Shown here: one piece after another, positions 1,992 through 18,790 of the stretch | Position numbering within the stretch: the stretch's first letter is position 1 | Layout: each line of letters opens with the position of its first letter | Origin: an uncultured archaeon | GTDB taxonomy: Archaea > Asgardarchaeota > Lokiarchaeia > Sigyniarchaeales > SOKP01 | Assembly: GCA_964583985.1 (NCBI GenBank) | Contig: CAZOYD010000050.1 | Span: 1-25,066, forward strand | Length of the DNA: 25,066 nucleotides | Reading direction: 5' to 3' | Program-made: the position numbers and the translations under genes | Notes under the pieces: model-generated | Told to the model about the DNA's origin: nothing | The model's database searches: none | Seen by the model: the letters and a program-made list of their open reading frames with translations, nothing else

Positions 1992-2942
1992 TCAGTATTT
2001 CTTAGCAATTTCTGCTAGTTTATCATTCAAATTTGAAACTGTTTCATGCCAAGATGATAAAATTTCTTCCACTCTTGGTATTGTGGTGCTTCTTTCTTTA
2101 TATTCTAGATACTTGGTAAATTCTTTCATGTTTTCAATTTTAATGAATGTTTCTGCGACATATTGGCGAATGCTCCGAACTTGATTCTGGAGAACTTCTT
2201 GTATTCTTTGGGACTCTCCTTTTCTAATGAGTGTTCTAATATATTCTTCAGTGCCAAGTAGCATTGAATTGAGTTCATTAATTCGTTGTTCAATAAATTG
2301 GTTATAAGTTTCTAATAAATTTTCTCTTGGAAAGAAAGTTGCGATATCTATTATGAACTTTTGGGTTTGAGCGATCAATTGTTCCATTGTCTCAAAGCCT
2401 AAAACTTTAAAATCTATTGGAGAATAAGATGCAACAATTCCTTTTGACACGTCATCTAATCGAAATATTTTAAATCCAGGATCGTGCTCAAGCTGAATTA
2501 CTGGATCCCCTTTTCTACTTGGTAATTCGATTTGACGAATCAGGCGTTCAGGATTGAAAACTAAGGAAATTGCTAAGGGATTATTTGTTTGGAAACTCAG
2601 AGTTGTTTTAATATCTATATGACTCATCATTACTTTAAAACCGGGATGACTATGCCACCACCCAACTGTAAATTCTCCTTTAGAGAATGCCTCTTCATCA
2701 ATAATATACAATGCTTCATAATCTTCATCACTCCACTTGTATTGATCAATTACTGCGTCTTTATCTAATTCTTGATGCATTATTGGATAAGCTTGTGTGA
2801 TGATGACATCATCCCCTTCGTTTTTACCGATAAAAATGCCACTTACTTCTAACCAATCATCTTTTGGAATCCTTTGATTCGCAAACCTCACGGTTGCTGC
2901 AACAATGGTATAATATGCTTCTTTAGGAATTATAACTGTCAT
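1992..2942 (-). CDS. MPN+/JAMM (Mov34/PAD-1, Rpn11/CSN5-like) metallo-isopeptidase with helical C-terminal region
   Basis: LEVSGIFIG carries the catalytic Glu; VGWWHSHPGFKVMMSHID is an intact HxH-x7-S-x2-D; followed by LVFNP and FKIFRL. Confidence 0.9.
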   Translation of the reverse strand: MTVIIPKEAYYTIVAATVRFANQRIPKDDWLEVSGIFIGKNEGDDVIITQAYPIMHQELDKDAVIDQYKWSDEDYEALYIIDEEAFSKGEFTVGWWHSHPGFKVMMSHIDIKTTLSFQTNNPLAISLVFNPERLIRQIELPSRKGDPVIQLEHDPGFKIFRLDDVSKGIVASYSPIDFKVLGFETMEQLIAQTQKFIIDIATFFPRENLLETYNQFIEQRINELNSMLLGTEEYIRTLIRKGESQRIQEVLQNQVRSIRQYVAETFIKIENMKEFTKYLEYKERSTTIPRVEEILSSWHETVSNLNDKLAEIAKKY

Positions 2943-3065
2943 TTCAATATCACAATACTAGTTCCCATATTTATCTTTATTTTTTTGGATGTTTCTAACA
3001 CATTTATATGTATATAATTTATATACTACATTATCTGAATAACTAACAATAATTAATTGATTAAA

Positions 3066-3707
3066 ATGACCGAACAAGGTTTTATTCCTTTGAGTAGTCA
3101 GTTGGGAATACCTGGCACTTCTTATCGTGTTCAATTAGGATTGATCAATGATAAATGGGCTTCAAGACTTCTGAAGGGAAATGATATTATTGATTCTTTT
3201 ATCTATAAGGATGAAGATGTTGGAGACCAAGGTTTTCCAAATCAAAATATGATTGTAGGATGGGTATTAAGAACAATCGCCATCCCAAATATTAATCCTC
3301 ACCAAATTATGAAAACCACTCAAGTTTTGGTAAAACAAGCTAGGGAAAAGAAAGACCAGCAAAAAGTTGTGGCTCCTATTTCCGAAACAAGAGATGTTGA
3401 GTTAGAAAAAGTGCCTGAAAATGAATTGAAGAGACCGAAGGTTCAAGGATGGGTTAAAGAAGAAGGAATGAAAACTGTTGATGAGTTAGAAGCCGAAAGA
3501 AGAGAAGCTTTTCAAGTAAGATTAGCAGCTAAGAAAGAAGAAGAAAGATTGAAAGCAGCTACTCCAGAATCAACAATTAAGACTACAAGACAGCTCCCAT
3601 CTATTCCTAAAGCTACTCAAGAAGTAGAATCCTCGAAATTTTGCCATTCATGTGGTAAAGATTTGGATTTTAAATTTTGCCCTTATTGTGGTAAACCTTT
3701 ACTGTAA
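3066..3707 (+). CDS. Hypothetical protein with charged helical linker and C-terminal zinc ribbon
   Basis: C-terminus FCHSCGKDLDFKFCPYCGKPL. ATG at 3066 preferred over the track's TTG at 3057. Divergent from the MPN gene. Confidence 0.8.
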   Translation: MTEQGFIPLSSQLGIPGTSYRVQLGLINDKWASRLLKGNDIIDSFIYKDEDVGDQGFPNQNMIVGWVLRTIAIPNINPHQIMKTTQVLVKQAREKKDQQKVVAPISETRDVELEKVPENELKRPKVQGWVKEEGMKTVDELEAERREAFQVRLAAKKEEERLKAATPESTIKTTRQLPSIPKATQEVESSKFCHSCGKDLDFKFCPYCGKPLL

Positions 3708-3907: not shown

Positions 3908-5659
3908 ATGGAAGAAATTAAGAATTCTAAAGATCCGATTCTAGCGGGACATGGTATTGCTAATTTTTTAAGATCGCATGGAGTTGCACATGTTTTTGGA
4001 ATTCCAGATGGTCATACTTTAAGCCTTTATGATGGAATTTTGGCAACTGAAGGGATTGAACATATATTATTTAATGATGAACGGAACGCGGCATTTGCAG
4101 CAGATGCATACTCAAGAGTATTGGGATCATTAGGCGTTTGTGATGCAGGAGCAGCAGGTTCCATGAATTTTTCCATTGCTTTAGCTGAAGCAAAAGGTTC
4201 TGCGTCTCCTGTTTTAGCAATTGCAGGAGTAGTAAAATCCACTGATTTTTTAAAAAATATTCCCCATGATATCAATGTCACTAAAACTCTTGAAGCGGTA
4301 ACAAAATGGACTGGAACAGTACTTAATCCTGAACATTTGCCTCGTTTTTTAAAATATGCTGTTAAGCAAGCCATTAATGGCAGACCAGGTCCTACAGCTC
4401 TGGTGATCTCTGAAGATGTAATGAATTCTAATGAAATAAAATTAAAGGAATTCATACCTAGGATTGGAGGAAGCTGTTCATTAAATTCTTGTAGAGCTAT
4501 TGCAGCTCCTAATGAAATAGAACAAGCAGTTTCAATGATTGAAAATTCAAGTCAACCTGCAATTTATTGTGGCTCAGGTGCATTAATATCAGGAGCTTTT
4601 GAAGAGGTAAAAATGCTTAGTAAAATTCTTCTAGCTCCTGTTTTTTCTACAATTTCTGGTAAAGGCATAATGATTACAAATCAATCAGATGAAAATCTTT
4701 ACTTTGGTACAGTAGGGTTATTTGGAGAGAAACCGAATCACAAATTTATACGCACTAAATCAGATTTATTGATTGTGGTTGGAAATCGTCTTACTGAAGA
4801 TGATACAGCTAATTTCAAAGTCCCGAGTAAAAGAATGGAAATGATTCAAATAGATGTTGAAGCCAGTGAAATCGGATTATCCTATAATCCATGGGGTATT
4901 ATAGGTGATCCAAAAGAAACTTTGAAGTTAATGATAAATGAATTAAATGCACGCAAAATTCAAAGTCTCGATAAAAATGGAGAAATATTAAAAAATAGAA
5001 TGAAGAATATTGAGATTCTTAGAAGAGACCATATATTATACCGAGAATCTGATAATTTATTGTGGATGAATGCCAATCCCATCAAACCTCAAAGGATTTT
5101 GAAATCCATAGCAGAGTTAATGGGTAAAGATGATTATTTAGTTACTGATGCAAGTGCAAGTTCTAGATGGATCGGCCCATATTTTCCTATAAAAAAGATC
5201 GGTCGTCGGATAATTACTCCCCGAGGAGTTGGACCCACAGGTTTTGGAATTGGAGCTTTAATCGGAACGAGTATAGCATCAAAGCAATTAAATTCTAATA
5301 AAAATAATTCAAGAACAATTTTATTCACTGGAGATGGAGGTTTGATGAATGGTGGTATAACGGAACTTGAAACAATTCATAAATTAGATTTAGATTGCAT
5401 TATTGTCATAATAAATAATTCTTTGCTTGGATTTATAAAATTCGGTCAAGCTATGCTTTTTAAACATAGATATTACGAGGTTGAGCGCCCTAAAACGGAT
5501 TTTGCAAAAATTGCTGAAGCATTTGGAGGCATCGGATATCATGTAGATCAACTTACTCAACTAGATCTTACTTTAAAAGACGCTTTTCAAGGTGAAGGAT
5601 TCAAAATAGTCGATATTTCTGTTGATCCATTGGAACTTCTTCCTCCGAATTATTATTAA
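3908..5659 (+). CDS. Thiamine pyrophosphate-dependent enzyme, acetolactate synthase large-subunit-like family
   Basis: HVFGIPDG; DERNAAFAADAYSR with the conserved Glu; GRPGP; central DLLIVVGNRL..IQID; TPP motif TGDGG..IINN. Confidence 0.88.
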   Translation: MEEIKNSKDPILAGHGIANFLRSHGVAHVFGIPDGHTLSLYDGILATEGIEHILFNDERNAAFAADAYSRVLGSLGVCDAGAAGSMNFSIALAEAKGSASPVLAIAGVVKSTDFLKNIPHDINVTKTLEAVTKWTGTVLNPEHLPRFLKYAVKQAINGRPGPTALVISEDVMNSNEIKLKEFIPRIGGSCSLNSCRAIAAPNEIEQAVSMIENSSQPAIYCGSGALISGAFEEVKMLSKILLAPVFSTISGKGIMITNQSDENLYFGTVGLFGEKPNHKFIRTKSDLLIVVGNRLTEDDTANFKVPSKRMEMIQIDVEASEIGLSYNPWGIIGDPKETLKLMINELNARKIQSLDKNGEILKNRMKNIEILRRDHILYRESDNLLWMNANPIKPQRILKSIAELMGKDDYLVTDASASSRWIGPYFPIKKIGRRIITPRGVGPTGFGIGALIGTSIASKQLNSNKNNSRTILFTGDGGLMNGGITELETIHKLDLDCIIVIINNSLLGFIKFGQAMLFKHRYYEVERPKTDFAKIAEAFGGIGYHVDQLTQLDLTLKDAFQGEGFKIVDISVDPLELLPPNYY

Positions 5660-5781: not shown

Positions 5782-7269
5782 ATGGTAAAAATTGGAGAAG
5801 AATTCCCAGTAATCATTAAATCATTAGCATATTACAAAATGCTTATTCACGTGCTGCGTTTTGGTTCGAAAGTTTTAGACCCTAATCAATGCAAGGAGGT
5901 TATGGGAGGGTTAATTGGGCACATTAAAATAAAGGGAGATAAAGAATTCTTAGTCATTGAAGATGCTATTCCAGTTTCCCATGGTGGTGCTATCGAAGTG
6001 AGATATTCTTCAGAGCAATTAGGATCCTTTGAAAGAATTGATAGTCGCGTTTTTGAAAAATTTGGAGATCAAGGTTGGTTTAGCTGTGGATGGTATCACT
6101 CGCATCCTAACCTTACACCATTTTTCAGTGGAACAGACATACAGAATCAATTATTTTGGCAAGCTAGAAACCCGGCAGGAGTTGGACTCGTATTTGATCA
6201 TGCTTTTTTAGAAAAAGAAGGAAACCTTGGATTTAAGGCTTTTAGATTAGATGATCCATCAAAAGCTAGAAATACGAATTATCATGAAGTAAAAACGGTT
6301 GTGGAATCCCCTGATGATGTTGGGTTTTATACCAATTTAATAGATTTAATCGGAAATGTGTATTCCAAGGAAATTCCAATACTAGAGCTTAATGAAACAA
6401 CGAATTTTTTTGATGATATTTTTATTCCTAGTAATGATCAATTATTGATCAAAAAACCAGAATTGAACCTAAAACAAGTGATAAATTCATTTAAAGAGGG
6501 CATTTCGAGTTTTATAGAACAATCAATGGATCCATTAATTACTGTTTTGAATACATGGAGTCAAGAAAACCTTAAAAAAACATTTCAAAACAGCATAAAA
6601 ATGAGAAAAGATCTTGTTGAGTTAAAATCCAATTTGAGCAATGGGATGACAAGCATACAAAAGACATTCAATCAATCACTTCATGATAAATTGGAGAAAT
6701 TAGATGACTTTATCGATAATCGTCTTGACATTTTCGATGAAAAACAAGACAGTTTAAGAGAAAAAATGACTATATTTGAAGGAGATATTGACGTTCTTAT
6801 AAATAACACATTACAAGATAATATCACGAATATAATGGAAGGAATTCTAACCAGTTTCAAAAATTCATCATCAAAGTTATTGGAAATGGATAAAAAGCAA
6901 GCGTTTATAATCAATAGTCTTGAAAAAAGTAATATCTCACTTCAAGAAATGATAAAAACGTTAGAACCGTCAAAGGTTAGAATCCTTGGAGGAATTGATG
7001 CGTTAAATAAATCAATCATTGAGAATGTTAAAAAGAAATTAAAATTGACAGAAACTAAATTTGAATCCCTTGAAAATGATTCAAAAAAACTCCTCTCAGA
7101 TCTAAAAGCTGCGCTTTTAGTTTTAGAAGGTTCCAAAGAACCTTTAGAACAAAAGATAGATCGTCTGGAAATGGATAAGAAGAATTTACACGAAAAATTA
7201 AAAGAAATAAAGGCAGAAAATGCGGAACTATCGAAGAAAATTAAAGAAATAGAAAAGGAGGATCAATAA
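5782..7269 (+). CDS. MPN+/JAMM (Rpn11-like) protein with long coiled-coil C-terminus
   Basis: KEVMGGLIG; GWYHSHPNLTPFFSGTD is an intact JAMM motif (His codons at 6097 and 6103); LVFD, FKAFRL; about 270 aa of heptad-rich helical tail. Confidence 0.9.
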   Translation: MVKIGEEFPVIIKSLAYYKMLIHVLRFGSKVLDPNQCKEVMGGLIGHIKIKGDKEFLVIEDAIPVSHGGAIEVRYSSEQLGSFERIDSRVFEKFGDQGWFSCGWYHSHPNLTPFFSGTDIQNQLFWQARNPAGVGLVFDHAFLEKEGNLGFKAFRLDDPSKARNTNYHEVKTVVESPDDVGFYTNLIDLIGNVYSKEIPILELNETTNFFDDIFIPSNDQLLIKKPELNLKQVINSFKEGISSFIEQSMDPLITVLNTWSQENLKKTFQNSIKMRKDLVELKSNLSNGMTSIQKTFNQSLHDKLEKLDDFIDNRLDIFDEKQDSLREKMTIFEGDIDVLINNTLQDNITNIMEGILTSFKNSSSKLLEMDKKQAFIINSLEKSNISLQEMIKTLEPSKVRILGGIDALNKSIIENVKKKLKLTETKFESLENDSKKLLSDLKAALLVLEGSKEPLEQKIDRLEMDKKNLHEKLKEIKAENAELSKKIKEIEKEDQ

Positions 7270-7272
7270 AAG

Positions 7273-8616
7273 ATGGCTAAAAATGGAGATATTTTGGGAA
7301 ATGTGGATATTCAACCAAGTGCTTTTAAAAATATGATATTTCATATATTAAGGTTTGTAAACGAGATAAAAGATGAACCCACAGAAGTCATGGGGTTGTG
7401 TATCGGCAATTTCAACTCTGAAAATGATACAGTGACTATTACTGATTCAATTCCATTATTACATGGAGACACAGTAGAATTAGGATTATCCCAAGAACTT
7501 CATGATTTATTTGAAGAAGTAAAAGCATCTCATGAGTCCATTATAGGTTATTATGTTTCTCATCCGGGTTATGGCTTATTTATGACTGATTCTGATAAAA
7601 AGATTCAACAATATTTTCAAACTAAAGAAAATCCAAATGCAATCTGCATCGTATTCGATCACACACTTATCAAAGACAAATTTGGTGTAAAAGTTTTTAA
7701 ATTCAAAGATTATGAAAATACAGAAGAAATCGTTGAAATATTGCTGAATATCCTAATTCCTGATAATCTTGAATATTTCAAATGGGTTCAAGCACTTGTT
7801 GAAAATTTCCAAAGAAAAGAACCAATGATTATCAAGGAATATCTTGAAATCCAAAAACCCCTTCTTGAACAATTACAGGAAATCCCTCAAATGTCTGATA
7901 TGATTGAGGAATCAAAAGAAAAATTATCTTCTCAAATGGAAAAATCAATAACTGGTATTAAAGCTGGTGCGACAACACTAGCAGATACTTTTATCGATAA
8001 TTACGTGAATCATTTAGATGCATGGCTAGCTGATATAGAAGAAGGGAGTCTAAAAGGTATGAATTTCATCCAAAGTTCTCTTAATCAGCTGAAAAATACA
8101 ATTGGTAAGGGATTAGATGGCTTGGAAAAATATTTTCAAAGAAAGTTTAATGAAATCACAGCTGTATTTGTCGATGGCATAACTGAATCTTTAGAGTCAA
8201 GGATTGAAAATCAAAAAGACTTAGAAAAACATTTAACTTCTCAGATTGAAAATATTATTTCTAACTCTAAAGAAGTTATAAACCAAAAAATGAGAGAATT
8301 GATAACGGTTTTAGAATCCCAAGCTACTCAGTTAGAAGAACTAGCAACAAATCATGATATAAATGCTAACCGTATAGAGGAATTAATCGATAATAATACG
8401 AATAAAATTTCATCGCTATACTCGATGCTAAACGCCTTATCTGAAGATATAAAAAAAAGGCTTGGAACTTCCAGTCCTCAATTTGAGAAAGCATTGTTAA
8501 ATGAAATTGAGAATCAAGGAATCAATTTCGTGCCAATCAATGAAAAATATGGAGAAATAGAACTTTTGATTGAACGGCTCCAAAATCTCATATCAGAATT
8601 TAGACAAATGAAGTAA
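7273..8616 (+). CDS. MPN- (degenerate JAMM) protein with long helical tail; paralogue of the upstream gene
   Basis: TEVMGLCIG; IGYYVSHPGYGLFMTDSD has first His->Val and Ser->Thr; IVFDH, VKVFKF. Starts 3 bp after the upstream stop, with GGAGG upstream. Confidence 0.88.
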   Translation: MAKNGDILGNVDIQPSAFKNMIFHILRFVNEIKDEPTEVMGLCIGNFNSENDTVTITDSIPLLHGDTVELGLSQELHDLFEEVKASHESIIGYYVSHPGYGLFMTDSDKKIQQYFQTKENPNAICIVFDHTLIKDKFGVKVFKFKDYENTEEIVEILLNILIPDNLEYFKWVQALVENFQRKEPMIIKEYLEIQKPLLEQLQEIPQMSDMIEESKEKLSSQMEKSITGIKAGATTLADTFIDNYVNHLDAWLADIEEGSLKGMNFIQSSLNQLKNTIGKGLDGLEKYFQRKFNEITAVFVDGITESLESRIENQKDLEKHLTSQIENIISNSKEVINQKMRELITVLESQATQLEELATNHDINANRIEELIDNNTNKISSLYSMLNALSEDIKKRLGTSSPQFEKALLNEIENQGINFVPINEKYGEIELLIERLQNLISEFRQMK

Positions 8617-8907: not shown

Positions 8908-9059
8908 CGGTAATATAAAATATCATTCAAACTTTTTAAAAGTTTCATCTTAAACAAATTAAACATTTTTTGGGTTAATTGGGAATTTATTTAAGAAAAA
9001 ATACATTAAATAAAGATAATTTATATCTCTACGTTAATATAAATATACATGGGGTTAAA

Positions 9060-11381
9060 ATGAAAGCACGTGAATACTTATCCCAGTCTAAAAAAAAACT
9101 AAAGCGTTTATCTGATAAAATTTTATATCAAGAGATCACAACTGATAGTCAAGAACCGCCAAAATTTTATTCTTATGGAAGGAAATTTATAGGTTTATAT
9201 GTCTTTTTTCTTTTTTATTCCTTTATCATATTATTTGCCATTAATTATCCTAGACATCCGTTTGTTTTATTTCTAACAATGCAAAATCCTTTTGCATTTG
9301 GTAACGCCATTATTGGACTTTATCTTTCTCTTTCTATTCTATATAGTATAGATCAAGTTCGTAATTTTATGTTTGAAAAAAACACAGTGATTAAACAAAT
9401 AGCACTTTATGGGGCATTGATAAGTGGGTATTTTTTCCTGTTTTCATACATAACCTTTAGTGGTGCAAACATCATGAGTTATCTTTTAGGCTTATCAACA
9501 GTATGGTTAATACTCTTAGGAACTCGTTTTTACATGTATTCCCGTAAATTTGCAACGAAAATTGAAGCTCGTTTTATTACTAAATTTACAGTTACAAGGA
9601 GTGCTGTTGCATTTACAACTCCTTATTTCATATTAGCCGTGTTAGTAATTTTAGCTTTATTTTATCGAAGTTTGCTAGTTTTTTTATCACTTGATTTCTT
9701 TGCTATAGCGGCTCCAATAGAAGCTGTTACTGTATATCTCTTAGAAATGAGATTAGTAATGCCACTTATTTATTTTAGTTTGATTCTAACGTTACTTTTC
9801 ATTCTATTTGAATTCATATTCACACGCAGGAAAGCGGAAACGAAAAGAGCTGGGTTATATGATAACTTTACTTTTTCTTTAATAGTGTTATTTATATTCT
9901 TTTTTCAGTTGCTACAAGTCAGTATATACTTGATAATGCGCGAAGAAACGATTTCTGCTATTAAAACGACTGTGGGTGCAACAAGTGCAACGGTTACTTA
10001 CATTTTTATATTTGAATTTATAATTTCAATGTTCTTCCTTTACCGCATTGTTAAAAAATTAGGCCTTTCAATTGGATGGCGATTATTAATATTTAAAAAA
10101 GACGGTTTAATATTACTGATATTAGGTTGTGTTTTTGCTCAGACACTTTCTCGTTACGCCCTTCAAAATCAAATTCCCTATCAAGGGATTACAGAGATAG
10201 GGCTAATTTTCATGTCAGATAAATATCTTGTATCTATTATCATAATCATTTTTCTTGGTATCACATTATTGATATATTATTTGAAACCCCATGAAACATC
10301 AATGTTTATTAGATTACAGAAAGAAACGGTCTCTGAAAAAGAACAAGACTCAGATATTGTGCTGAAATTAATAAGGAGTGAATATATTCGAAGAGGAGAA
10401 GCATTTCCTATTGATATTTTGGAAAGAGAGTTAATTAAAGCAACAAGACTTCCTAAACAAAGGATTTATGCAATAATCAACACGCTAGCTTATGATAATA
10501 TTGATATAAACATAAGAAATAAGAAGGATGATTTGGGAAGAAATAGAAAATATATTGATTTTGTCTCAGTGACAGAGAAATTTGATCGTAAAGGAGTTGC
10601 TCAAAAGAAAGCAAAAAAGTATCTCAGTCAAAGATTATTTGAAACCATGTCTAAAAGAGAAACATCACTCAAACTGGGAGGGAATTTACAATCCAATGAA
10701 TCATCTAATCAATTCTTGAATTCTTTGTCAACTGACTATACCAAGAAACAAGTAGAAGAAACAAAAATAAAAGAACAACAGGAACAGAGTGCTTTTTCAT
10801 TCGTTCGGAAAGAAATTCCTCAGTCACTAAAGAATAACATAATTCAAACGTTAAAAAAAGAATACACATATAGAGTCGAAAATGCAGATAAATATCAAGA
10901 TTTTCATTTTAGCATATCCGAAATAGCCTCTGAAATTCAAACACAAACTAGGATAACTGTTGGTGAACTCTATCCTATTCTTGAAATTCTCAAGGAATCA
11001 GACATTGAGTTCGAATTGTTGGATAATCCCGAAGAACCCGATGATAAATTAATTAGTTTTTTTCCCATTGCTGATGAAGATTTAAGTTATCAAATATTAA
11101 ATTTTCGTCCTGAAGAATATGCCAAAATAAAAACACGTGTAACAAAACAATTCCTAAAATTCTTTAATCGCAAAAAAGCTAAAGCCACTTTAACCAAACT
11201 TAGGAAAGAAATAATCGATGGGAATGAGGCGAATGACTCTTGGAAACAAATTTTGACAAGATTAGAAAATTACTTCGCAGATTATTCTAGTACTCATTTA
11301 AAACTCATCAACGGTGAAGGTGGAGAGAAAATATTTGAGCAATTTCCTAGAAAAGATATTGATATTTTTGATATTAAATAG
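9060..11381 (+). CDS. Polytopic membrane protein (about 10-11 TM) with a large soluble C-terminal region containing two winged-helix-like repeats
   Basis: Successive hydrophobic segments up to LLIYYLKP, then about 360 aa hydrophilic. Probable start is ATG 9060 after GGGG (track start is TTG 8979). Confidence 0.8.
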   Translation: MKAREYLSQSKKKLKRLSDKILYQEITTDSQEPPKFYSYGRKFIGLYVFFLFYSFIILFAINYPRHPFVLFLTMQNPFAFGNAIIGLYLSLSILYSIDQVRNFMFEKNTVIKQIALYGALISGYFFLFSYITFSGANIMSYLLGLSTVWLILLGTRFYMYSRKFATKIEARFITKFTVTRSAVAFTTPYFILAVLVILALFYRSLLVFLSLDFFAIAAPIEAVTVYLLEMRLVMPLIYFSLILTLLFILFEFIFTRRKAETKRAGLYDNFTFSLIVLFIFFFQLLQVSIYLIMREETISAIKTTVGATSATVTYIFIFEFIISMFFLYRIVKKLGLSIGWRLLIFKKDGLILLILGCVFAQTLSRYALQNQIPYQGITEIGLIFMSDKYLVSIIIIIFLGITLLIYYLKPHETSMFIRLQKETVSEKEQDSDIVLKLIRSEYIRRGEAFPIDILERELIKATRLPKQRIYAIINTLAYDNIDINIRNKKDDLGRNRKYIDFVSVTEKFDRKGVAQKKAKKYLSQRLFETMSKRETSLKLGGNLQSNESSNQFLNSLSTDYTKKQVEETKIKEQQEQSAFSFVRKEIPQSLKNNIIQTLKKEYTYRVENADKYQDFHFSISEIASEIQTQTRITVGELYPILEILKESDIEFELLDNPEEPDDKLISFFPIADEDLSYQILNFRPEEYAKIKTRVTKQFLKFFNRKKAKATLTKLRKEIIDGNEANDSWKQILTRLENYFADYSSTHLKLINGEGGEKIFEQFPRKDIDIFDIK

Positions 11382-12771: not shown

Positions 12772-15700
12772 TTAAATAACTTGCATTGGTTTACCATGGT
12801 GTTTTGGGATTGGCTGAGTTCCACATGAGGAGCCCATCCAACAAACTAATTGATCATCTTCTTCGTGCATAGGTTTACCACAATGCTTTGGTAAATCTTG
12901 CTCAAAACCACATTCAACACATTTTAATTTTGCCAATTTTTCTTTAACCTCTTTTTTGTTAGATTTAACACTCTCTTCTTTAATTTCAACATATTTATCT
13001 GGTTCTTGCTTAAATTCCATCAAACAGGAGTTACTGCAGAAATAATATTTTTCTCCCTTATACTCATATTCAATCCAATCCTCCGGTTTTCCTTTCATTC
13101 CACAAATTGGATCAGTTACAAGATTTTCTGATGTTGATTGTTTTTGCATTAGTTTAGGATTGATCTTATCAAAATTCATATATTTTTCCGGATTAAGCTT
13201 AAACTCTTTTTCACATCCTGCGCTGCAGAAATAATATTTTTTATCTTTGTATTTGTATTCAATTGATTGGCTTGGGACGATCTCCATGCCACATATTGGA
13301 TCTATTACCCTTTCTTCAGTTAATAACTTAAATTCTTGTATTTGTTGTTTTGTTTTTGGTTCATAGCGTTTCAAGAACAAGGCATTAGTAACCACTGAAA
13401 CAGAGCTAGAAGCCATAAAAACAGCGGCTAAATATGGGAGAAGAAAGTACCCTGTCAAGGTATATAACAGTCCAGCTGCCAATGGAATACCAATAATGTT
13501 ATATATTAATGCCCAGAATAAGTTTGTGATCATTTTTCGATATGTCTTTTTTGATAGATTAATTGCTGCTACCACATTTCTTAAATCTCCTCTCATCAGA
13601 ACAATATCTGCAGTTTCTATCGCCACATCAGTCCCAGAACCTATTGCAATCCCAACATCTGCTTGTGCTAATGCAGGTGCGTCATTTATACCATCTCCTA
13701 CCATAGCGACATGAATGTCTTCAGCAGATTCTTGCAAATTCTTTATAGTAATAGCTTTTTCATTTGGTAATACTTCTGCAAATACATGGTCTTCATCAAA
13801 ATTTAGCTCTTTCCCAATACTCATGGCAGTTTGTCTATTGTCTCCAGTTAACATGTAAATATCTAAGCCTTTTCTTCTTAATTCCTGAAGAGCATATGGA
13901 GTTTGATCTTTTACTTTATCAGAAATTCCTAATATTCCTTTTACTTGATTATTAATACTAATTAAAATTGTTGTTATACCTCTTTGCTGATATTCATTGA
14001 ATTTATCTTTATACTCTTCAATTGAGATATTATTATCTCCAAACAGTTTTTCATTACCCAGATGAACTTTGTTATCAGATATTATCGTAATAATACCTTT
14101 CCCAGGAATCGCTTCGAAATCAATTGGAGAAATTAGTGATAAACCTCTTTGATTTGCTTCTTCAATTATTGACTGTCCAATTGGATGTTCCGAACCCATT
14201 TCAGCACTCCCTGCATAAAAAAGTATATCATTGTCACTCATACCTTCACTTTTTAGGTTCTTTTCGGAATAAATAATAGAGACTTTTGGTTTCCCTACTG
14301 TCAATGTTCCAGTTTTATCAAAAACTATGGTGTTAATATCATTCACAGCCTCTAAAGAGTCTCCTCCCTTCATTAAAATACCGTTTTCTGCTCCTTTTCC
14401 CGTACCAACCATTATTGCGGTTGGAATAGCTAATCCTAAAGCACACGGGCACGATATTACAACAACAGAAGCAAATACAAGTAATGACTTTTCTAATCGT
14501 AATGACGTTTCTAATCCGTTTAGACCAATGAAAAACCAGTAAAGGAATGCACCAATGGCAATAATTACTACTATAGGAACAAAATAGTTACTCACTTTGT
14601 CAGCTAAGCGTTGTCGAGATCCTTTCCGAGCTTGAGCCTCTTTCACAAAATCAATTATCTGAAATAAGAGCGTATCCTTTCCAATCTTTTCAGTAACTAA
14701 CCTAATTAACCCAGTTTGATTTATTGTTGCACCAATAACTTTATCATCGATTGATTTTTTCACATATTTGCTTTCACCTGTAATCATAGATTCATCTATT
14801 TTTGTTTTTCCTTCAATGATCCTTCCATCTACGGGTATTTTCTCTCCGGGTCTAACTATTAGTTGATCACCAATTTCAATTTCCTCAATTGGAATTTCAA
14901 TCTCTTGACCATCTTTAAATAGAGTGGCAGTTTTTGGTTGTAAGCCAATTAGTTTCTTTATTGCTTCAGATGCTTGTCCTTTAGTTTTATGTTCTAAGTA
15001 TTTACCGATCAAGATGAATGCGAAGATCATGCTCATCGCATCATAAAACACGTCTCCAGAGGTAAAGATAAAGGTAGTCAATAAGGAATAAACGTACGCA
15101 GTCGTAGTTCCTAATACGATTAGAACATCCATATTTGTTGATTTGCTTTTTAATGATTTATAAGCCCCTCCTAAGAAAAAAGATCCAGAAATAGCATAGT
15201 TTGCAGTAGAAAGAATTGCTAAAATAAGATTCCGCGTAAAAGTTGGTGGAACTATAAAGTTTATAGGAGAAATTATTGCCGCAAATATTATTGAAATAAT
15301 AAGAAGTCGTAATCGGTATTTCATTTCTTTTTTGTGTTGCTCAAGTTCTTTGTCCACAGCGCTAGCGGCTTTTTCGATTTTATATCCAAAATTTTTCACC
15401 CTTGAGTAAATTTCTTGCTCATCCGATTTCAATTCATTGAATTCAATAAAGAATTTTCTAGCTTCATAGTTACTTCTCACATTATAAATTCCGTCAATCA
15501 TTCTTGTTTTGTTTTCTAAATTTTCAAATTCTTCTTTAGTAACTGTACTAACTACTTTAAGATCCATTTTAGCTAAGTTTCCTTTATATCCTAAATCTTT
15601 AATCGCTTTATTAAAGGTATCATAATTCGTTATATTTGGATCGAATTCTACTGTAGCCTCCTCATTTGCAAAATTTACAACAGAACTAGAAACCCCGTTT

Positions 15701-15789
15701 AAATCCTTTAATTTAGTTTCGATCTTCAAAGCACAGTTCGCACAAGTCATTCCACTGAGTTTAATTTTAACTTTATCTTTAGATTCCAA
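12772..15789 (-). CDS. copA: Copper(I)-translocating P1B-type ATPase with N-terminal HMA, two C-terminal YHS/TRASH domains and a Cys/His tail
   Basis: GMTCANC, TGES, CPC, DKTGT, SEHP, GDGIND; YN and MASSS TM signatures of the P1B-1 class; two DPICGM..YYFCSxxC domains. TTG start preceded by GGTGG. Confidence 0.93.
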
Positions 15790-16426: not shown

Positions 16427-18790
16427 TTAATTCAATATTATTAATTTCCTTTTTTTTGGTAAAGAAACTTTTTCAACCCCTAATTCCTTCACGTAATCTA
16501 CAACTTCAATTAAATTCTTTGCAGATTGGTGAAAGAAGCATACTTCTTTAGGTTCTAAGGCTTTAATCATTTCAGCTAATTGATTTTTATCAGCATGAAG
16601 TTTTATTTGTAATTGCGGAGCAAACGTATTTATTAGCATTGCTCGAAATGGAACACTCCACGATTCGGTAAATGTAATTTCTTGACCTCCATTTATTAGA
16701 TTTAATCCGGGTTCTTCGTGAATTGAGCCAGCAAGAAACACCAAATTGTGAGGATTACGGCCAATTACATTGATGATGTTCCGAATGATACCGTAGGATA
16801 AATCTGGTGGGTGACTGATGATTATGTTATTTTTTTTCTTTAAAAAATCTAAATCATTCAGATCAAACCATCTAAATTTTATAGAATTAAAGGGATTTGC
16901 TTTATCCTTTATCAATTTAGAAATTGGACCGTAAATGTATTGATAACGATGATTAATTACTTGAATATTTTTTCTTACCATCATATCTACATAAATATTG
17001 GGACGCTTTGTGAATCCTTTTTGTCTCAATTGTAACTTCCTAAAGTACCTCCAAAATATAAGCATGAACGTAATTGCTAAACTCGAGGGATCTGTCCCAA
17101 TTAACACGTTATCTTCGTATTCCGCTTTTTGTTCCATGAATAAAATGAGGCTATGAAATTGATCAGAGATATTCCCATGATCTTCTTTTGCACTAGTTCC
17201 ATCTATTAACAAATAATCAATTGGTCTTGAAATTTGTTCTAAAAACCTTTTAGTTCCAGAAAAAGGAGTAATATCATTGTAAGTATAATCTCCAGTATAA
17301 AGGAAACGAAATTCATTAACTTTTATTAAAATCATTAAAGCTCCCGGCATGTGACCAGCATGAAAGAATGAGAAATAACAATTTTTTTCTTTAAATTCTA
17401 ATTTTTCACCATTCTCTACATATATTACATTCTTGACTATGTTGCGATATTCTTCTTCCTCAATTTCTTCAAAAGTTTCTTGTTTTAAGAATTTTGAATC
17501 TCTTAAGAGGAATAGATCCATTGTTATCCGGGAACTTAAGATTGGAACGTCGGGATACATTTGTATTAATTTTTTTAGTCCCGAAACGTGATCATAATGA
17601 CTATGTGAAATAAAAATCGCATCAATTTTAGGCAAAAATAAAGATTTTTCCTTTAAATCATTAATTTCGGAATCTTCAAATTGAGTTCCTTGTTCTTGTA
17701 TTTCTTGGCTTAGTTCTTCATTGTGAAGTTCTTCATTTTCTGCTTCCTTTATCAATTCGGGTAAGTTATCGAGATAATCAATAATATTTTGAAAATCATT
17801 GTATTTCTTAATTGGGAAATTCATGTCATTGGGTTCATTTTCTTCGGTATCATCAGGTTCATACTCTGAAATTCCGCAATCCAGAAGAAAATTTAAATCC
17901 CCTAAACCTAGAATATGACAATTATGATTAGGTTTTAATACAATAGGATAGATAGAAACCCTAATTTTTTCATTTTTAATTTTTGAGAGAGAGATGTTGT
18001 TAAAATAATTGGAATCATACCTTTTTTCTATTTTATCGATTGCGAGGGAGATCTCACTTTTTCCGACGGGGACACCAGTGATATAAAAATACCATCCATA
18101 TTTCTTAACCAATTTCTCAAGATTATCATACATTTTATCTCCATTTAAAGCCTTTATTACAATTACTTTTTCTTTTATGTAATAGATGATATTTCTAATT
18201 GATTTTTTTTCTTCTATTGGTACTAATAGATTATTGTCAAAAAGATCATCCAAGACTTCCAATATATTCATTTGAGGGATATTTTTTGACTGTATTAGTT
18301 TAGAATAATGAAAATATTCTTTAGTATGATATAAAGAACGCATATTTAGTTTTTCTTCAACTGAGATGGTTAGATCTTCAAAAATGTAATCTTGTGAGCC
18401 TACAATCTCTTCCTTCTTCTTTTGCTTTTCCTTTTTTTTCTTTGGTTCTGAAATTTGTTTTTTTTCGTTTTCTGAAACAAAGAAAAACCATCCATACTGG
18501 TTAATTAACTTATCTCGATTCCATATAATATCCTTACCTGATGTAGTAATAAGAATAATAATTCTATCATTTGAAGAATAAATTACCTTAGAAATAGATT
18601 TTTTAGATTTTTTAGAAATTATAGTGTCCTCGGAAAAAAAATGTGTAAAAACATCCGTTATTGATTTTTGTATAATACCCCTCTTTTCCATATAACGTAA
18701 TTTATCCTTATAAATTTTAATTTTATAAGAGGAGCTTAATATATCTACTTCTTCAAGGATAATCGTGTTATCTGCAAATTTATATTCCAT
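16427..18790 (-). CDS. Metallo-beta-lactamase/beta-CASP family nuclease with duplicated N-terminal domain
   Basis: LLDCG, SHSHYDH, AGHMPGA, LYTGDY, LIDGT, LHAD, FFHQ correspond to MBL motifs I-IV and beta-CASP motifs A-C. Confidence 0.88.
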   Translation of the reverse strand: MEYKFADNTIILEEVDILSSSYKIKIYKDKLRYMEKRGIIQKSITDVFTHFFSEDTIISKKSKKSISKVIYSSNDRIIILITTSGKDIIWNRDKLINQYGWFFFVSENEKKQISEPKKKKEKQKKKEEIVGSQDYIFEDLTISVEEKLNMRSLYHTKEYFHYSKLIQSKNIPQMNILEVLDDLFDNNLLVPIEEKKSIRNIIYYIKEKVIVIKALNGDKMYDNLEKLVKKYGWYFYITGVPVGKSEISLAIDKIEKRYDSNYFNNISLSKIKNEKIRVSIYPIVLKPNHNCHILGLGDLNFLLDCGISEYEPDDTEENEPNDMNFPIKKYNDFQNIIDYLDNLPELIKEAENEELHNEELSQEIQEQGTQFEDSEINDLKEKSLFLPKIDAIFISHSHYDHVSGLKKLIQMYPDVPILSSRITMDLFLLRDSKFLKQETFEEIEEEEYRNIVKNVIYVENGEKLEFKEKNCYFSFFHAGHMPGALMILIKVNEFRFLYTGDYTYNDITPFSGTKRFLEQISRPIDYLLIDGTSAKEDHGNISDQFHSLILFMEQKAEYEDNVLIGTDPSSLAITFMLIFWRYFRKLQLRQKGFTKRPNIYVDMMVRKNIQVINHRYQYIYGPISKLIKDKANPFNSIKFRWFDLNDLDFLKKKNNIIISHPPDLSYGIIRNIINVIGRNPHNLVFLAGSIHEEPGLNLINGGQEITFTESWSVPFRAMLINTFAPQLQIKLHADKNQLAEMIKALEPKEVCFFHQSAKNLIEVVDYVKELGVEKVSLPKKRKLIILN

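What the first reader, a model, noticed from the sequence alone, without database searches (positions are those of the whole stretch)
5782..8616. Adjacent active/pseudo-enzyme MPN pair: candidate archaeal analogue of Rpn11-Rpn8 / CSN5-CSN6 / BRCC36-Abraxas
Seen: two co-oriented genes 3 bp apart, each an MPN domain plus a long helical tail. The first has a complete JAMM motif (E..HSHPNLTPFFSGTD). The second reads VSHPGYGLFMTDSD; its Zn-ligand His is GTT at 7555-7557, two base changes from CAT, so a single-base error is unlikely. Similarity continues into the tails (FKEGISSFIEQSMDPLITVLNTW vs IKAGATTLADTFIDNYVNHLDAW; LVELKSNLSNGMTSIQKTF vs LNQLKNTIGKGLDGLEKYF), which indicates a full-length tandem duplication. 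Known: the eukaryotic proteasome lid, COP9 signalosome and BRISC/BRCA1-A use MPN+/MPN- heterodimers joined by C-terminal helices. Inference: these two proteins form a heterodimeric isopeptidase regulated by a pseudoenzyme partner, either ancestral to or convergent with the eukaryotic pairs.
Basis: partly seen in the sequence, partly recalled or inferred. Interest (0 to 1): 0.85.

Follow-up and report, generated by a model that had tools for sequence, protein, structure and literature searches.

The report
Asgard active/decaying MPN protease twin pair
A Lokiarchaeia (Asgard) archaeon has two back-to-back sister genes for deubiquitinase-like zinc proteases on long helical stalks; the first always keeps its active site, while the second has lost it here and at least six separate times across relatives, so the eukaryote-style 'enzyme plus dead twin' design appears to be arising independently in these archaea.

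Summary
Observation confirmed. Gene A (5782-7269) has a complete JAMM site. Gene B (7273-8616, 3 bp later) has Val for the first zinc His, which is not a sequencing error. They are full-length paralogues: MPN domain plus a 220-250-residue helix.

Across 90 loci in 12 genera, A directly precedes B in 89, and A's five catalytic residues never change. B is not a fixed pseudoenzyme: 26 of 90 orthologues are intact and 64 are broken in many ways, by 6-13 independent losses. Dead B stays under purifying selection, and A and B are inherited as one unit.

The pair was found only in two Lokiarchaeia families; eukaryotic Rpn11/CSN5 branch elsewhere in the best tree (AU test not significant, p=0.09). 'Ancestral to eukaryotic pairs' is therefore unlikely; 'convergent' fits.

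Heterodimer prediction gave weak support (0.56 vs best control 0.00). Activity, substrate and regulation are untested.

Best reading: a heterodimeric JAMM isopeptidase on a fixed-length coiled coil, with B as scaffold and its own site decaying. No paper found. This scan noted the same pair in at least eight other genomes.

The parts
5782..7269 (+). Gene A: MPN+/JAMM protein, 495 aa. MPN domain about residues 10-195, linker, then a continuous helix about 245-493.
   Evidence: catalytic residues show 0 changes on the 90-taxon tree
6097..6138 (+). Intact JAMM motif of A (His106, His108, Ser116, Asp119; catalytic Glu39 lies upstream)
7257..7272 (+). GGAGG 11 nt before the ATG of B, inside the last codons of A, plus the 3-bp gap: suggests translational coupling (inference)
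   Evidence: sequence; A-B gap is 15 nt or less in 77 of 89 loci, median 5
7273..8616 (+). Gene B: paralogue of A, 447 aa. MPN domain about residues 10-182 with a broken zinc site, then a continuous helix about 225-446.
7555..7596 (+). Degenerate JAMM motif of B: Val95 (GTT at 7555-7557) replaces the first His; His97, Thr105, Asp108 and Glu38 are kept
1992..2942 (-). Gene C: third MPN+ gene, 316 aa, divergently transcribed; part of the conserved neighbourhood and a more distant paralogue of A/B
3057..3707 (+). Protein with a C-terminal zinc ribbon; in relatives it usually lies directly upstream of A
3908..5659 (+). Acetolactate-synthase-like gene (named from its sequence, not scanned) inserted between the zinc-ribbon gene and A in this genome only; not part of the system
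   Evidence: absent from all other loci examined, including the closest relative L031
8638..8907 (-). Small winged-helix-like protein, conserved convergent neighbour of B
   Evidence: (weak hit, E 0.045)
8979..11381 (+). Multi-pass membrane protein of unknown family with two winged-helix-like C-terminal segments (by eye); conserved neighbour

Best explanation
A and B arose by tandem duplication of one active, long-stalked MPN+ gene inside Lokiarchaeia, before families f1 and f2 split (shown, with tree caveats). They are co-translated (inferred) and form a 1:1 heterodimer through MPN helices 1 and 4 and a parallel coiled coil of nearly fixed length, about 220-250 residues or roughly 30-35 nm (inferred; weak model support). 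A is the Zn-dependent isopeptidase and probably cleaves ubiquitin or ubiquitin-like conjugates (intact site shown; activity and substrate inferred). B is kept as the structural partner. Its second active site became dispensable and was lost repeatedly, here by His-to-Val (losses shown; cause inferred). The complex works like BRCC36-Abraxas or Rpn11-Rpn8 in outline, but it is an independent parallel.
For: Synteny 89/90 with tight spacing. A: 0 changes at 5 catalytic sites; B: 61 changes. Between 6 and 13 independent B losses, depending on how weak nodes are collapsed. B intact in three f2 genomes and in basal f1 lineages. Dead B under purifying selection: dN/dS 0.13 (MPN) and 0.14 (tail) against the nearest relative. 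B/A rate ratio 1.32 on branches with intact B and 1.31 inside dead clades. The least-changing B residues lie in helix 1 and helix 4, which are dimer helices in CsRpn11 crystals (PMC6043591) and BRCC36-KIAA0157 (PMC4579573). Tail core length is nearly invariant: 186 residues in 80/90 A and 185 in 87/90 B. Both tails share one periodicity, 3.67 proximal and 3.55 distal. A and B trees have no strongly supported conflicts, while both conflict with the flanking-gene tree. Complex prediction: weak support, score 0.56, best of 3 controls 0.00; the mark was reached by 58/80 solved complexes and 2/110 mismatched pairs, but at 0.60 or under by only 7 of the 80 and both mismatches; runs agree in at least 65% of contacts, partner pLDDT at least 69. 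The genome has a ubiquitin-E1-E2 operon.
Against: No binding or activity data. The complex score is weak, may reflect likeness to solved MPN dimers, and no homodimer control could be run. CsRpn11 is an active monomer in solution (PMC6043591), so A may not need a partner. Co-transfer of adjacent genes can follow from linkage alone. In one genome (L033) four genes separate A and B. Intact B copies are lost more slowly than average B sites change (rough estimate), so B's site is not simply neutral everywhere. The ubiquitin operon has its own MPN gene, so A's substrate is open.
Confidence: 0.55

Rival explanations
1. B is a selected regulator or substrate receptor, a true pseudo-DUB. It switches A on, as KIAA0157 does for BRCC36, or binds ubiquitin without cutting it, and killing its site was favoured rather than tolerated.
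For: Loss always hits B, also in a second, shorter duplicate pair in two f2 genomes. Glu-to-Gln with all zinc ligands kept occurs in 18 genomes from three separate lineages. One specific dead motif is shared by two non-sister lineages (identity 0.89-0.93 over B residues 90-110, against 0.41 to their intact sisters).
Against: The substitutions are very diverse. 26/90 copies remain intact. The rest of B does not change rate after loss. [quoted passage not shown]
Confidence: 0.2
2. A and B do not bind each other. Each forms its own homo-oligomer or filament on the long amphipathic helix, possibly membrane-bound, and they are only co-regulated.
For: MPN domains often homodimerise (PMC6043591, PMC4579573). 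The tails have 11/3 periodicity and their profiles hit apolipoprotein A-IV (E 1.4e-11 for B, 1.2e-8 for A). A membrane protein is a conserved neighbour.
Against: A and B are co-inherited against their flanks, have matched tail lengths, and got weak heterodimer support. Apolipoprotein-type hits are expected for any long 11/3 helix; designed coiled coils and chemoreceptors also hit.
Confidence: 0.17
3. The pair is the archaeal ancestor of the eukaryotic MPN+/MPN- heterodimers (Rpn11-Rpn8, CSN5-CSN6, BRCC36-Abraxas).
For: Same outline architecture. Both MPN domains are closest to CsRpn11, Rpn11, CSN5 and BRCC36 among solved structures. The AU test did not reject a clade of eukaryotic Rpn11/CSN5 with A+B (p=0.09). 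B passes the Pfam UPF0172 cut-off.
Against: B was intact at the base of the lineage, so the dead state is recent and repeated. The B profile scores Rpn11/CSN5 at 39-48 bits but Rpn8 at 26, and CSN6 and Abraxas are not in the top 60. The pair was not found in the other Asgard families searched. In the ML tree the Lokiarchaeia expansion is a 100/98 clade and Rpn11+CSN5 lie outside it. The ubiquitin-operon MPN homologues also carry UPF0172 hits, so that hit is not specific.
Confidence: 0.04
4. B is a decaying pseudogene, or the Val is an assembly error.
For: Many different lesions in B's site.
Against: The frame is open and full-length in nearly all loci, dN/dS is 0.1-0.5, the codon is confirmed in two other samples, and the loss is shared with four relatives.
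Confidence: 0.02

Closest known systems
BRCC36-KIAA0157/Abraxas (BRISC, BRCA1-A core; PMC4579573)
   Same: MPN+ enzyme with an MPN- partner, joined by MPN helix 1 and C-terminal helices
   Different: The tail here is one predicted 220-250-residue helix, not a short helical bundle. B is a close full-length paralogue that is still active-looking in 29% of orthologues. No BRCC45/MERIT40 partners were looked for. Activation of A by B is untested. Independent origin.
Rpn11-Rpn8 (proteasome lid) and CSN5-CSN6 (COP9 signalosome)
   Same: Closest solved MPN folds and sequences for both A and B are Rpn11 and CSN5
   Different: B resembles the active subunits, not Rpn8/CSN6. No set of PCI subunits in the locus; the genome has only three PCI-like hits in two long ORFs. 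The eukaryotic MPN- subunits are uniformly dead.
CsRpn11 of Caldiarchaeum subterraneum (PMC6043591)
   Same: Top PDB sequence hit for both profiles; archaeal JAMM that processes ubiquitin; crystal dimer through helices 1 and 4
   Different: About 200 aa, monomeric in solution, lies in the ubiquitin operon, no dead twin. The paper states that the MPN+/MPN- organisation was not known in archaea. The equivalent in this genome is probably the MPN on contig C29, not A or B.
Homomer-to-heteromer transition after duplication (model, PMC11066126)
   Same: Explains a retained paralogue heterodimer without a new function
   Different: A simulation study; here the ancestral homodimer is only inferred

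Membership tests
JAMM/MPN+ metalloprotease (gene A) | MPN fold | tested here: met
   Pfam JAB over cut-off; AlphaFold secondary structure; structure hits to BRCC36, CSN5, PSMD14 clusters
JAMM/MPN+ metalloprotease (gene A) | Glu ... His-x-His-x7-Ser-x2-Asp | tested here: met
   E39 H106 H108 S116 D119; 81/81 fully scoreable orthologues intact
JAMM/MPN+ metalloprotease (gene A) | Zn-dependent cleavage of Ub/Ubl | not testable with these tools
   needs an assay; ubiquitin genes are present in the genome
MPN- pseudo-enzyme (gene B of this genome) | MPN fold lacking at least one JAMM residue | tested here: met
   Val95 for the first His; fold matches Rpn11/CSN5 chains. The equivalent single change CSN5-H138A is described as deneddylation-deficient (PMC13629279; equivalence of the position from my own knowledge)
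MPN- pseudo-enzyme (B as a family) | Catalytic loss fixed across orthologues | tested here: not met
   26/90 intact in f1; 3 of 4 main pairs intact in f2
Eukaryotic MPN+/MPN- heterodimers | The two MPN proteins bind 1:1 | tested here: inconclusive
   weak support 0.56 vs best control 0.00, no interface reported
Eukaryotic MPN+/MPN- heterodimers | Orthology of A to Rpn11/CSN5/BRCC36 | tested here: inconclusive
   ML tree separates A from Rpn11/CSN5 (100/98) but AU p=0.09; BRCC36 not in the tree
Eukaryotic MPN+/MPN- heterodimers | B related to Rpn8/CSN6/Abraxas rather than to A | tested here: not met
   A and B group together (99/90) with full-length homology; Rpn8 scores 26 bits vs 39-48 for Rpn11/CSN5. 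No MPN- eukaryotic sequence was available for the tree
Eukaryotic MPN+/MPN- heterodimers | Short C-terminal helical bundle | tested here: not met
   both models show one continuous 220-250-residue helix; single-chain models, so folding back in a complex is not excluded
Eukaryotic MPN+/MPN- heterodimers | MPN- partner needed for activity | not testable with these tools
   needs biochemistry
PCI complexes (lid, CSN, eIF3) | Six PCI subunits around the MPN pair | tested here: not met
   three PCI hits over cut-off, in two long ORFs on other contigs; none in the locus

The most novel reading that the evidence does not exclude
Lokiarchaeia independently built an obligate MPN+/MPN- deubiquitinase heterodimer on a 30-35 nm coiled-coil stalk, in which the dead twin activates or targets the enzyme. 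Living genomes preserve the stages (two active copies, Glu-to-Gln zinc-retaining copy, zinc-less copy), so the origin of a pseudoenzyme's regulatory role can be tested on parallel replicates.
Probability: 0.3. Interest if true: 0.8.

Novelty: new variant of a known kind. Interest (0 to 1): 0.6.

Why it matters
Eukaryotic JAMM complexes pair an active MPN with a dead one, and a 2018 structural paper says this organisation was not known in archaea (PMC6043591). In eukaryotes the intermediates are gone. Here one duplication has led to 6-13 separate inactivations of the same twin, with intact orthologues alive beside them. That makes an open question testable: does a pseudoenzyme begin as a passively kept scaffold or as a selected regulator? 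It also adds a long-stalk JAMM architecture to the Asgard ubiquitin toolkit. It says little about eukaryote origins directly, because the pair looks Lokiarchaeia-specific.

Tried and rejected
Sequencing error and pseudogene readings were rejected. My first count of losses after collapsing weak nodes was faulty and was redone. A homologue search from the ubiquitin-operon MPN returned only archaeal proteins among the 120 listed. Rpn8, CSN6, Abraxas and BRCC36 sequences could not be obtained by reference, so the tree has only Rpn11- and CSN5-type eukaryotic sequences; one is named CSN5 by its source and the Rpn11 label rests on motif. The careful mixture-model tree did not finish; the quick one agreed on the archaeal groups. 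Single long MPN+ genes in the sister order looked like the pre-duplication state, but reversed tails score nearly as well against the A-tail profile (10-22 vs 18-23 bits) and the tree does not place them as sister to A+B, so this stays unproven. The promoter scan was at chance level and bacterial-type only. No RNA holder was listed. An Atlas search of the membrane neighbour gave only an unnamed Promethearchaeota cluster. Inter-protein covariation was not attempted (about 90 pairs, too shallow). Five literature searches on Asgard MPN pairs found no description; the library lacks most subscription journals.

Full report
OBSERVATION. The window is a whole 25-kb contig of a 3.8-Mb genome. Its nearest named relative is a Promethearchaeota (Lokiarchaeia-type) MAG with a 77% identical B. 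Gene A (5782-7269, 495 aa) and gene B (7273-8616, 447 aa) are 3 bp apart, with a GGAGG 11 nt before B's start. Both carry a JAB/MPN domain over the Pfam cut-off. A has all five JAMM residues. B has Val95 (GTT, 7555-7557) for the first His and keeps Glu38, His97, Thr105 and Asp108. Contigs from two other samples match this stretch exactly, and the four nearest relatives have an aliphatic residue there too. Homology is full-length. AlphaFold models (mean pLDDT 77-78) show an MPN domain, a poorly ordered linker and one helix of 220-250 residues in each protein.

NEIGHBOURHOOD. The genome has six MPN genes. One lies in a ubiquitin-E1-E2 operon on another contig. In 90 loci from 12 genera of the family the usual order is: AAA-vWA gene (734 aa, often), MPN gene C (-), zinc-ribbon gene, A, B, small winged-helix-like gene (-), membrane protein. 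A directly precedes B in 89 of 90 loci; the gap is 15 nt or less in 77 of 89 scored. The gene at 3908-5659 is an insertion seen only in this genome. Three genomes (97%, 99% and 84% complete) gave no match to A, B, C or the membrane gene, and two others break at a contig end inside A. I saw no genome with only one of the pair.

CATALYTIC SURVEY. A is intact in 81 of 81 fully scoreable orthologues, with no change at any catalytic site on the tree. B is intact in 26 of 90; 46 keep both His; 64 lack at least one residue, by Glu-to-Gln and others, first His to Ile/Val/Leu/Ser/Cys/Thr, second His to Arg, or Asp loss. On an A+B tree built without B's motif columns, irreversible loss needs 13 events, or 8, 7 and 6 after collapsing nodes below 0.9, 0.95 and 0.999. 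In the sister family f2 the pair occurs in four genomes; B is intact in three and dead in one. Two of them have a second, shorter pair, again with the first gene intact and the second dead. The sample is uneven (two genera dominate) and kin are not independent, so the fractions are descriptive.

WHY B IS KEPT. dN/dS between this genome and its nearest relative is 0.13 for B's MPN and 0.14 for its tail, like A's 0.12 and 0.15. B evolves 1.3 times faster than A whether its site is intact or dead. The B positions that change least include helix 1 (A17, F18, M21, H24, R27, F28) and helix 4 (P163, L166, F169, W171, E177). Helices 1 and 4 form the CsRpn11 crystal dimer (PMC6043591), and helix 1 plus the C-terminal helices form the BRCC36-KIAA0157 interface (PMC4579573). 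The tail core has almost no indels, and both tails switch from 3.67 to about 3.55 residue periodicity, as expected for a parallel in-register coiled coil (inference). A and B trees share 32 strong splits with no conflict, while each conflicts with the tree of the two downstream genes, which follows genus labels. Two lineages of one genus carry A and B of another genus's type between native flanks. Linkage can explain part of this.

COMPLEX PREDICTION. Full-length A+B gave weak support: 0.56, best control 0.00. The mark was reached by 58 of 80 solved complexes and 2 of 110 mismatches, but at 0.60 or under by only 7 of the 80 and by both mismatches. Runs agree in at least 65% of contacts; partner pLDDT is at least 69. 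Solved MPN dimers exist, so the pass may be from likeness, and homodimers were not tested.

ORIGIN. Both proteins match active JAMMs best. The B profile gives Rpn8 26 bits against 39-48 for Rpn11 and CSN5. A orthologues were found only in families f1 and f2 among 250 phylum genomes. A JAB-family search of 37 genomes showed no comparable adjacent long-tailed pair outside this order, but it missed a known dead B, so dead copies can escape it. Three single-contig f2 genomes gave no A/B match. In a 96-sequence MPN tree, A+B with one short paralogue form a 99/90 clade inside a Lokiarchaeia-only expansion (100/98), and Rpn11+CSN5 sit outside. Forcing Rpn11/CSN5 together with A+B costs 28.6 log-likelihood units, but AU p is 0.09, so the tree alone does not exclude it. 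The stronger argument is that B was active after the duplication and died many times later, so this dead state cannot be the source of Rpn8/CSN6/Abraxas. Single long-tailed MPN+ genes in the sister order may represent the state before duplication, but this is not shown.

MECHANISM. Shown: duplication, invariant A site, recurrent loss in B, retention of B, joint inheritance. Inferred: co-translation, heterodimer on a long stalk, A as Ub/Ubl isopeptidase, B as scaffold whose site became dispensable after a homomer-to-heteromer shift (a route modelled in PMC11066126). Open: substrate, what the stalk reaches, and whether B regulates A. Hints of a selected role for dead B are the repeated Glu-to-Gln state with zinc ligands kept, and one dead motif shared by two non-sister lineages.

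VERDICT. Real, conserved, and not found in the papers I could search; PMC6043591 states that the organisation was not known in archaea. It works like a eukaryotic MPN+/MPN- core in outline but is not a member of those families. The scan's earlier notes describe the same pair in at least eight other genomes. I had reached this reading before looking and tested it independently. Interest 0.6.

Noticed in passing
L081:7314-7360, L082, L091; L208-L215 (orthologues of gene C, window 1992-2942): In 8 of 54 genomes of genus g11, a 30-31-nt insert with a bulge-helix-bulge shape lies at one site in the JAMM motif of gene C (gene checked in three, flanking pattern in the rest). Removing it restores the frame: a candidate tRNA-type mRNA intron. 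It is absent in this window. The scan has noted it before.
   Followed up: partly
L081:2995-4338 and L083:6962-8326 (B, residues about 90-110): These two B genes share a dead motif with a distant lineage (identity 0.89-0.93, against 0.41 to their intact sisters) while the rest of the gene follows the sisters: local recombination or strong convergence.
   Followed up: partly
L090; L026, L027, L079, L084, L086: A and B both group with another genus's alleles while the flanking genes group with the host genus: the two-gene unit appears to have been replaced at least twice.
   Followed up: partly
L036:946-2160, L046:3-1097, L201:5446-6835: Two further short (about 200-240 aa) MPN-like genes, with degenerate motifs where readable, lie directly upstream of A in three genomes.
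   Followed up: no
L204:5198-7271, L205:531-2631: A second, shorter A'/B' pair in two f2 genomes, again with the first gene intact and the second dead.
   Followed up: partly
L150:487-1395 and 4184-5119 (G306): A sister-order genome has an intact 312-aa MPN and a dead 303-aa MPN, convergent and 2.8 kb apart; a separate case.
   Followed up: no
L087:1183-3387, L060:1024-3228: A conserved 734-aa AAA (ChlI/MoxR-type) plus vWA gene follows gene C in many relatives but not in this window.
   Followed up: no
window 8979-11381: Conserved membrane protein with two winged-helix-like segments and no known family; missing together with A, B and C in three genomes.
   Followed up: partly
L099:1364-6655 (own genome, contig C29): Ubiquitin operon: three ubiquitin-domain genes, one with a hydrophobic N-terminal part that looks membrane-anchored, plus E1, E2 and an MPN+ gene.
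   Followed up: partly
own genome C9:61781-62683 (-): An 802-aa ORF with several PCI/winged-helix-like repeats.
   Followed up: no
window 16427-18790 and 12772-15789: A metallo-beta-lactamase-fold protein with a long unassigned N-terminal part, and a heavy-metal P-type ATPase-like protein with extra C-terminal Cys/His domains.
   Followed up: no
L089:5451-6958: The apparent split of A in G096 coincides with a run of N in the assembly, so it is not evidence of a broken gene.
   Followed up: yes
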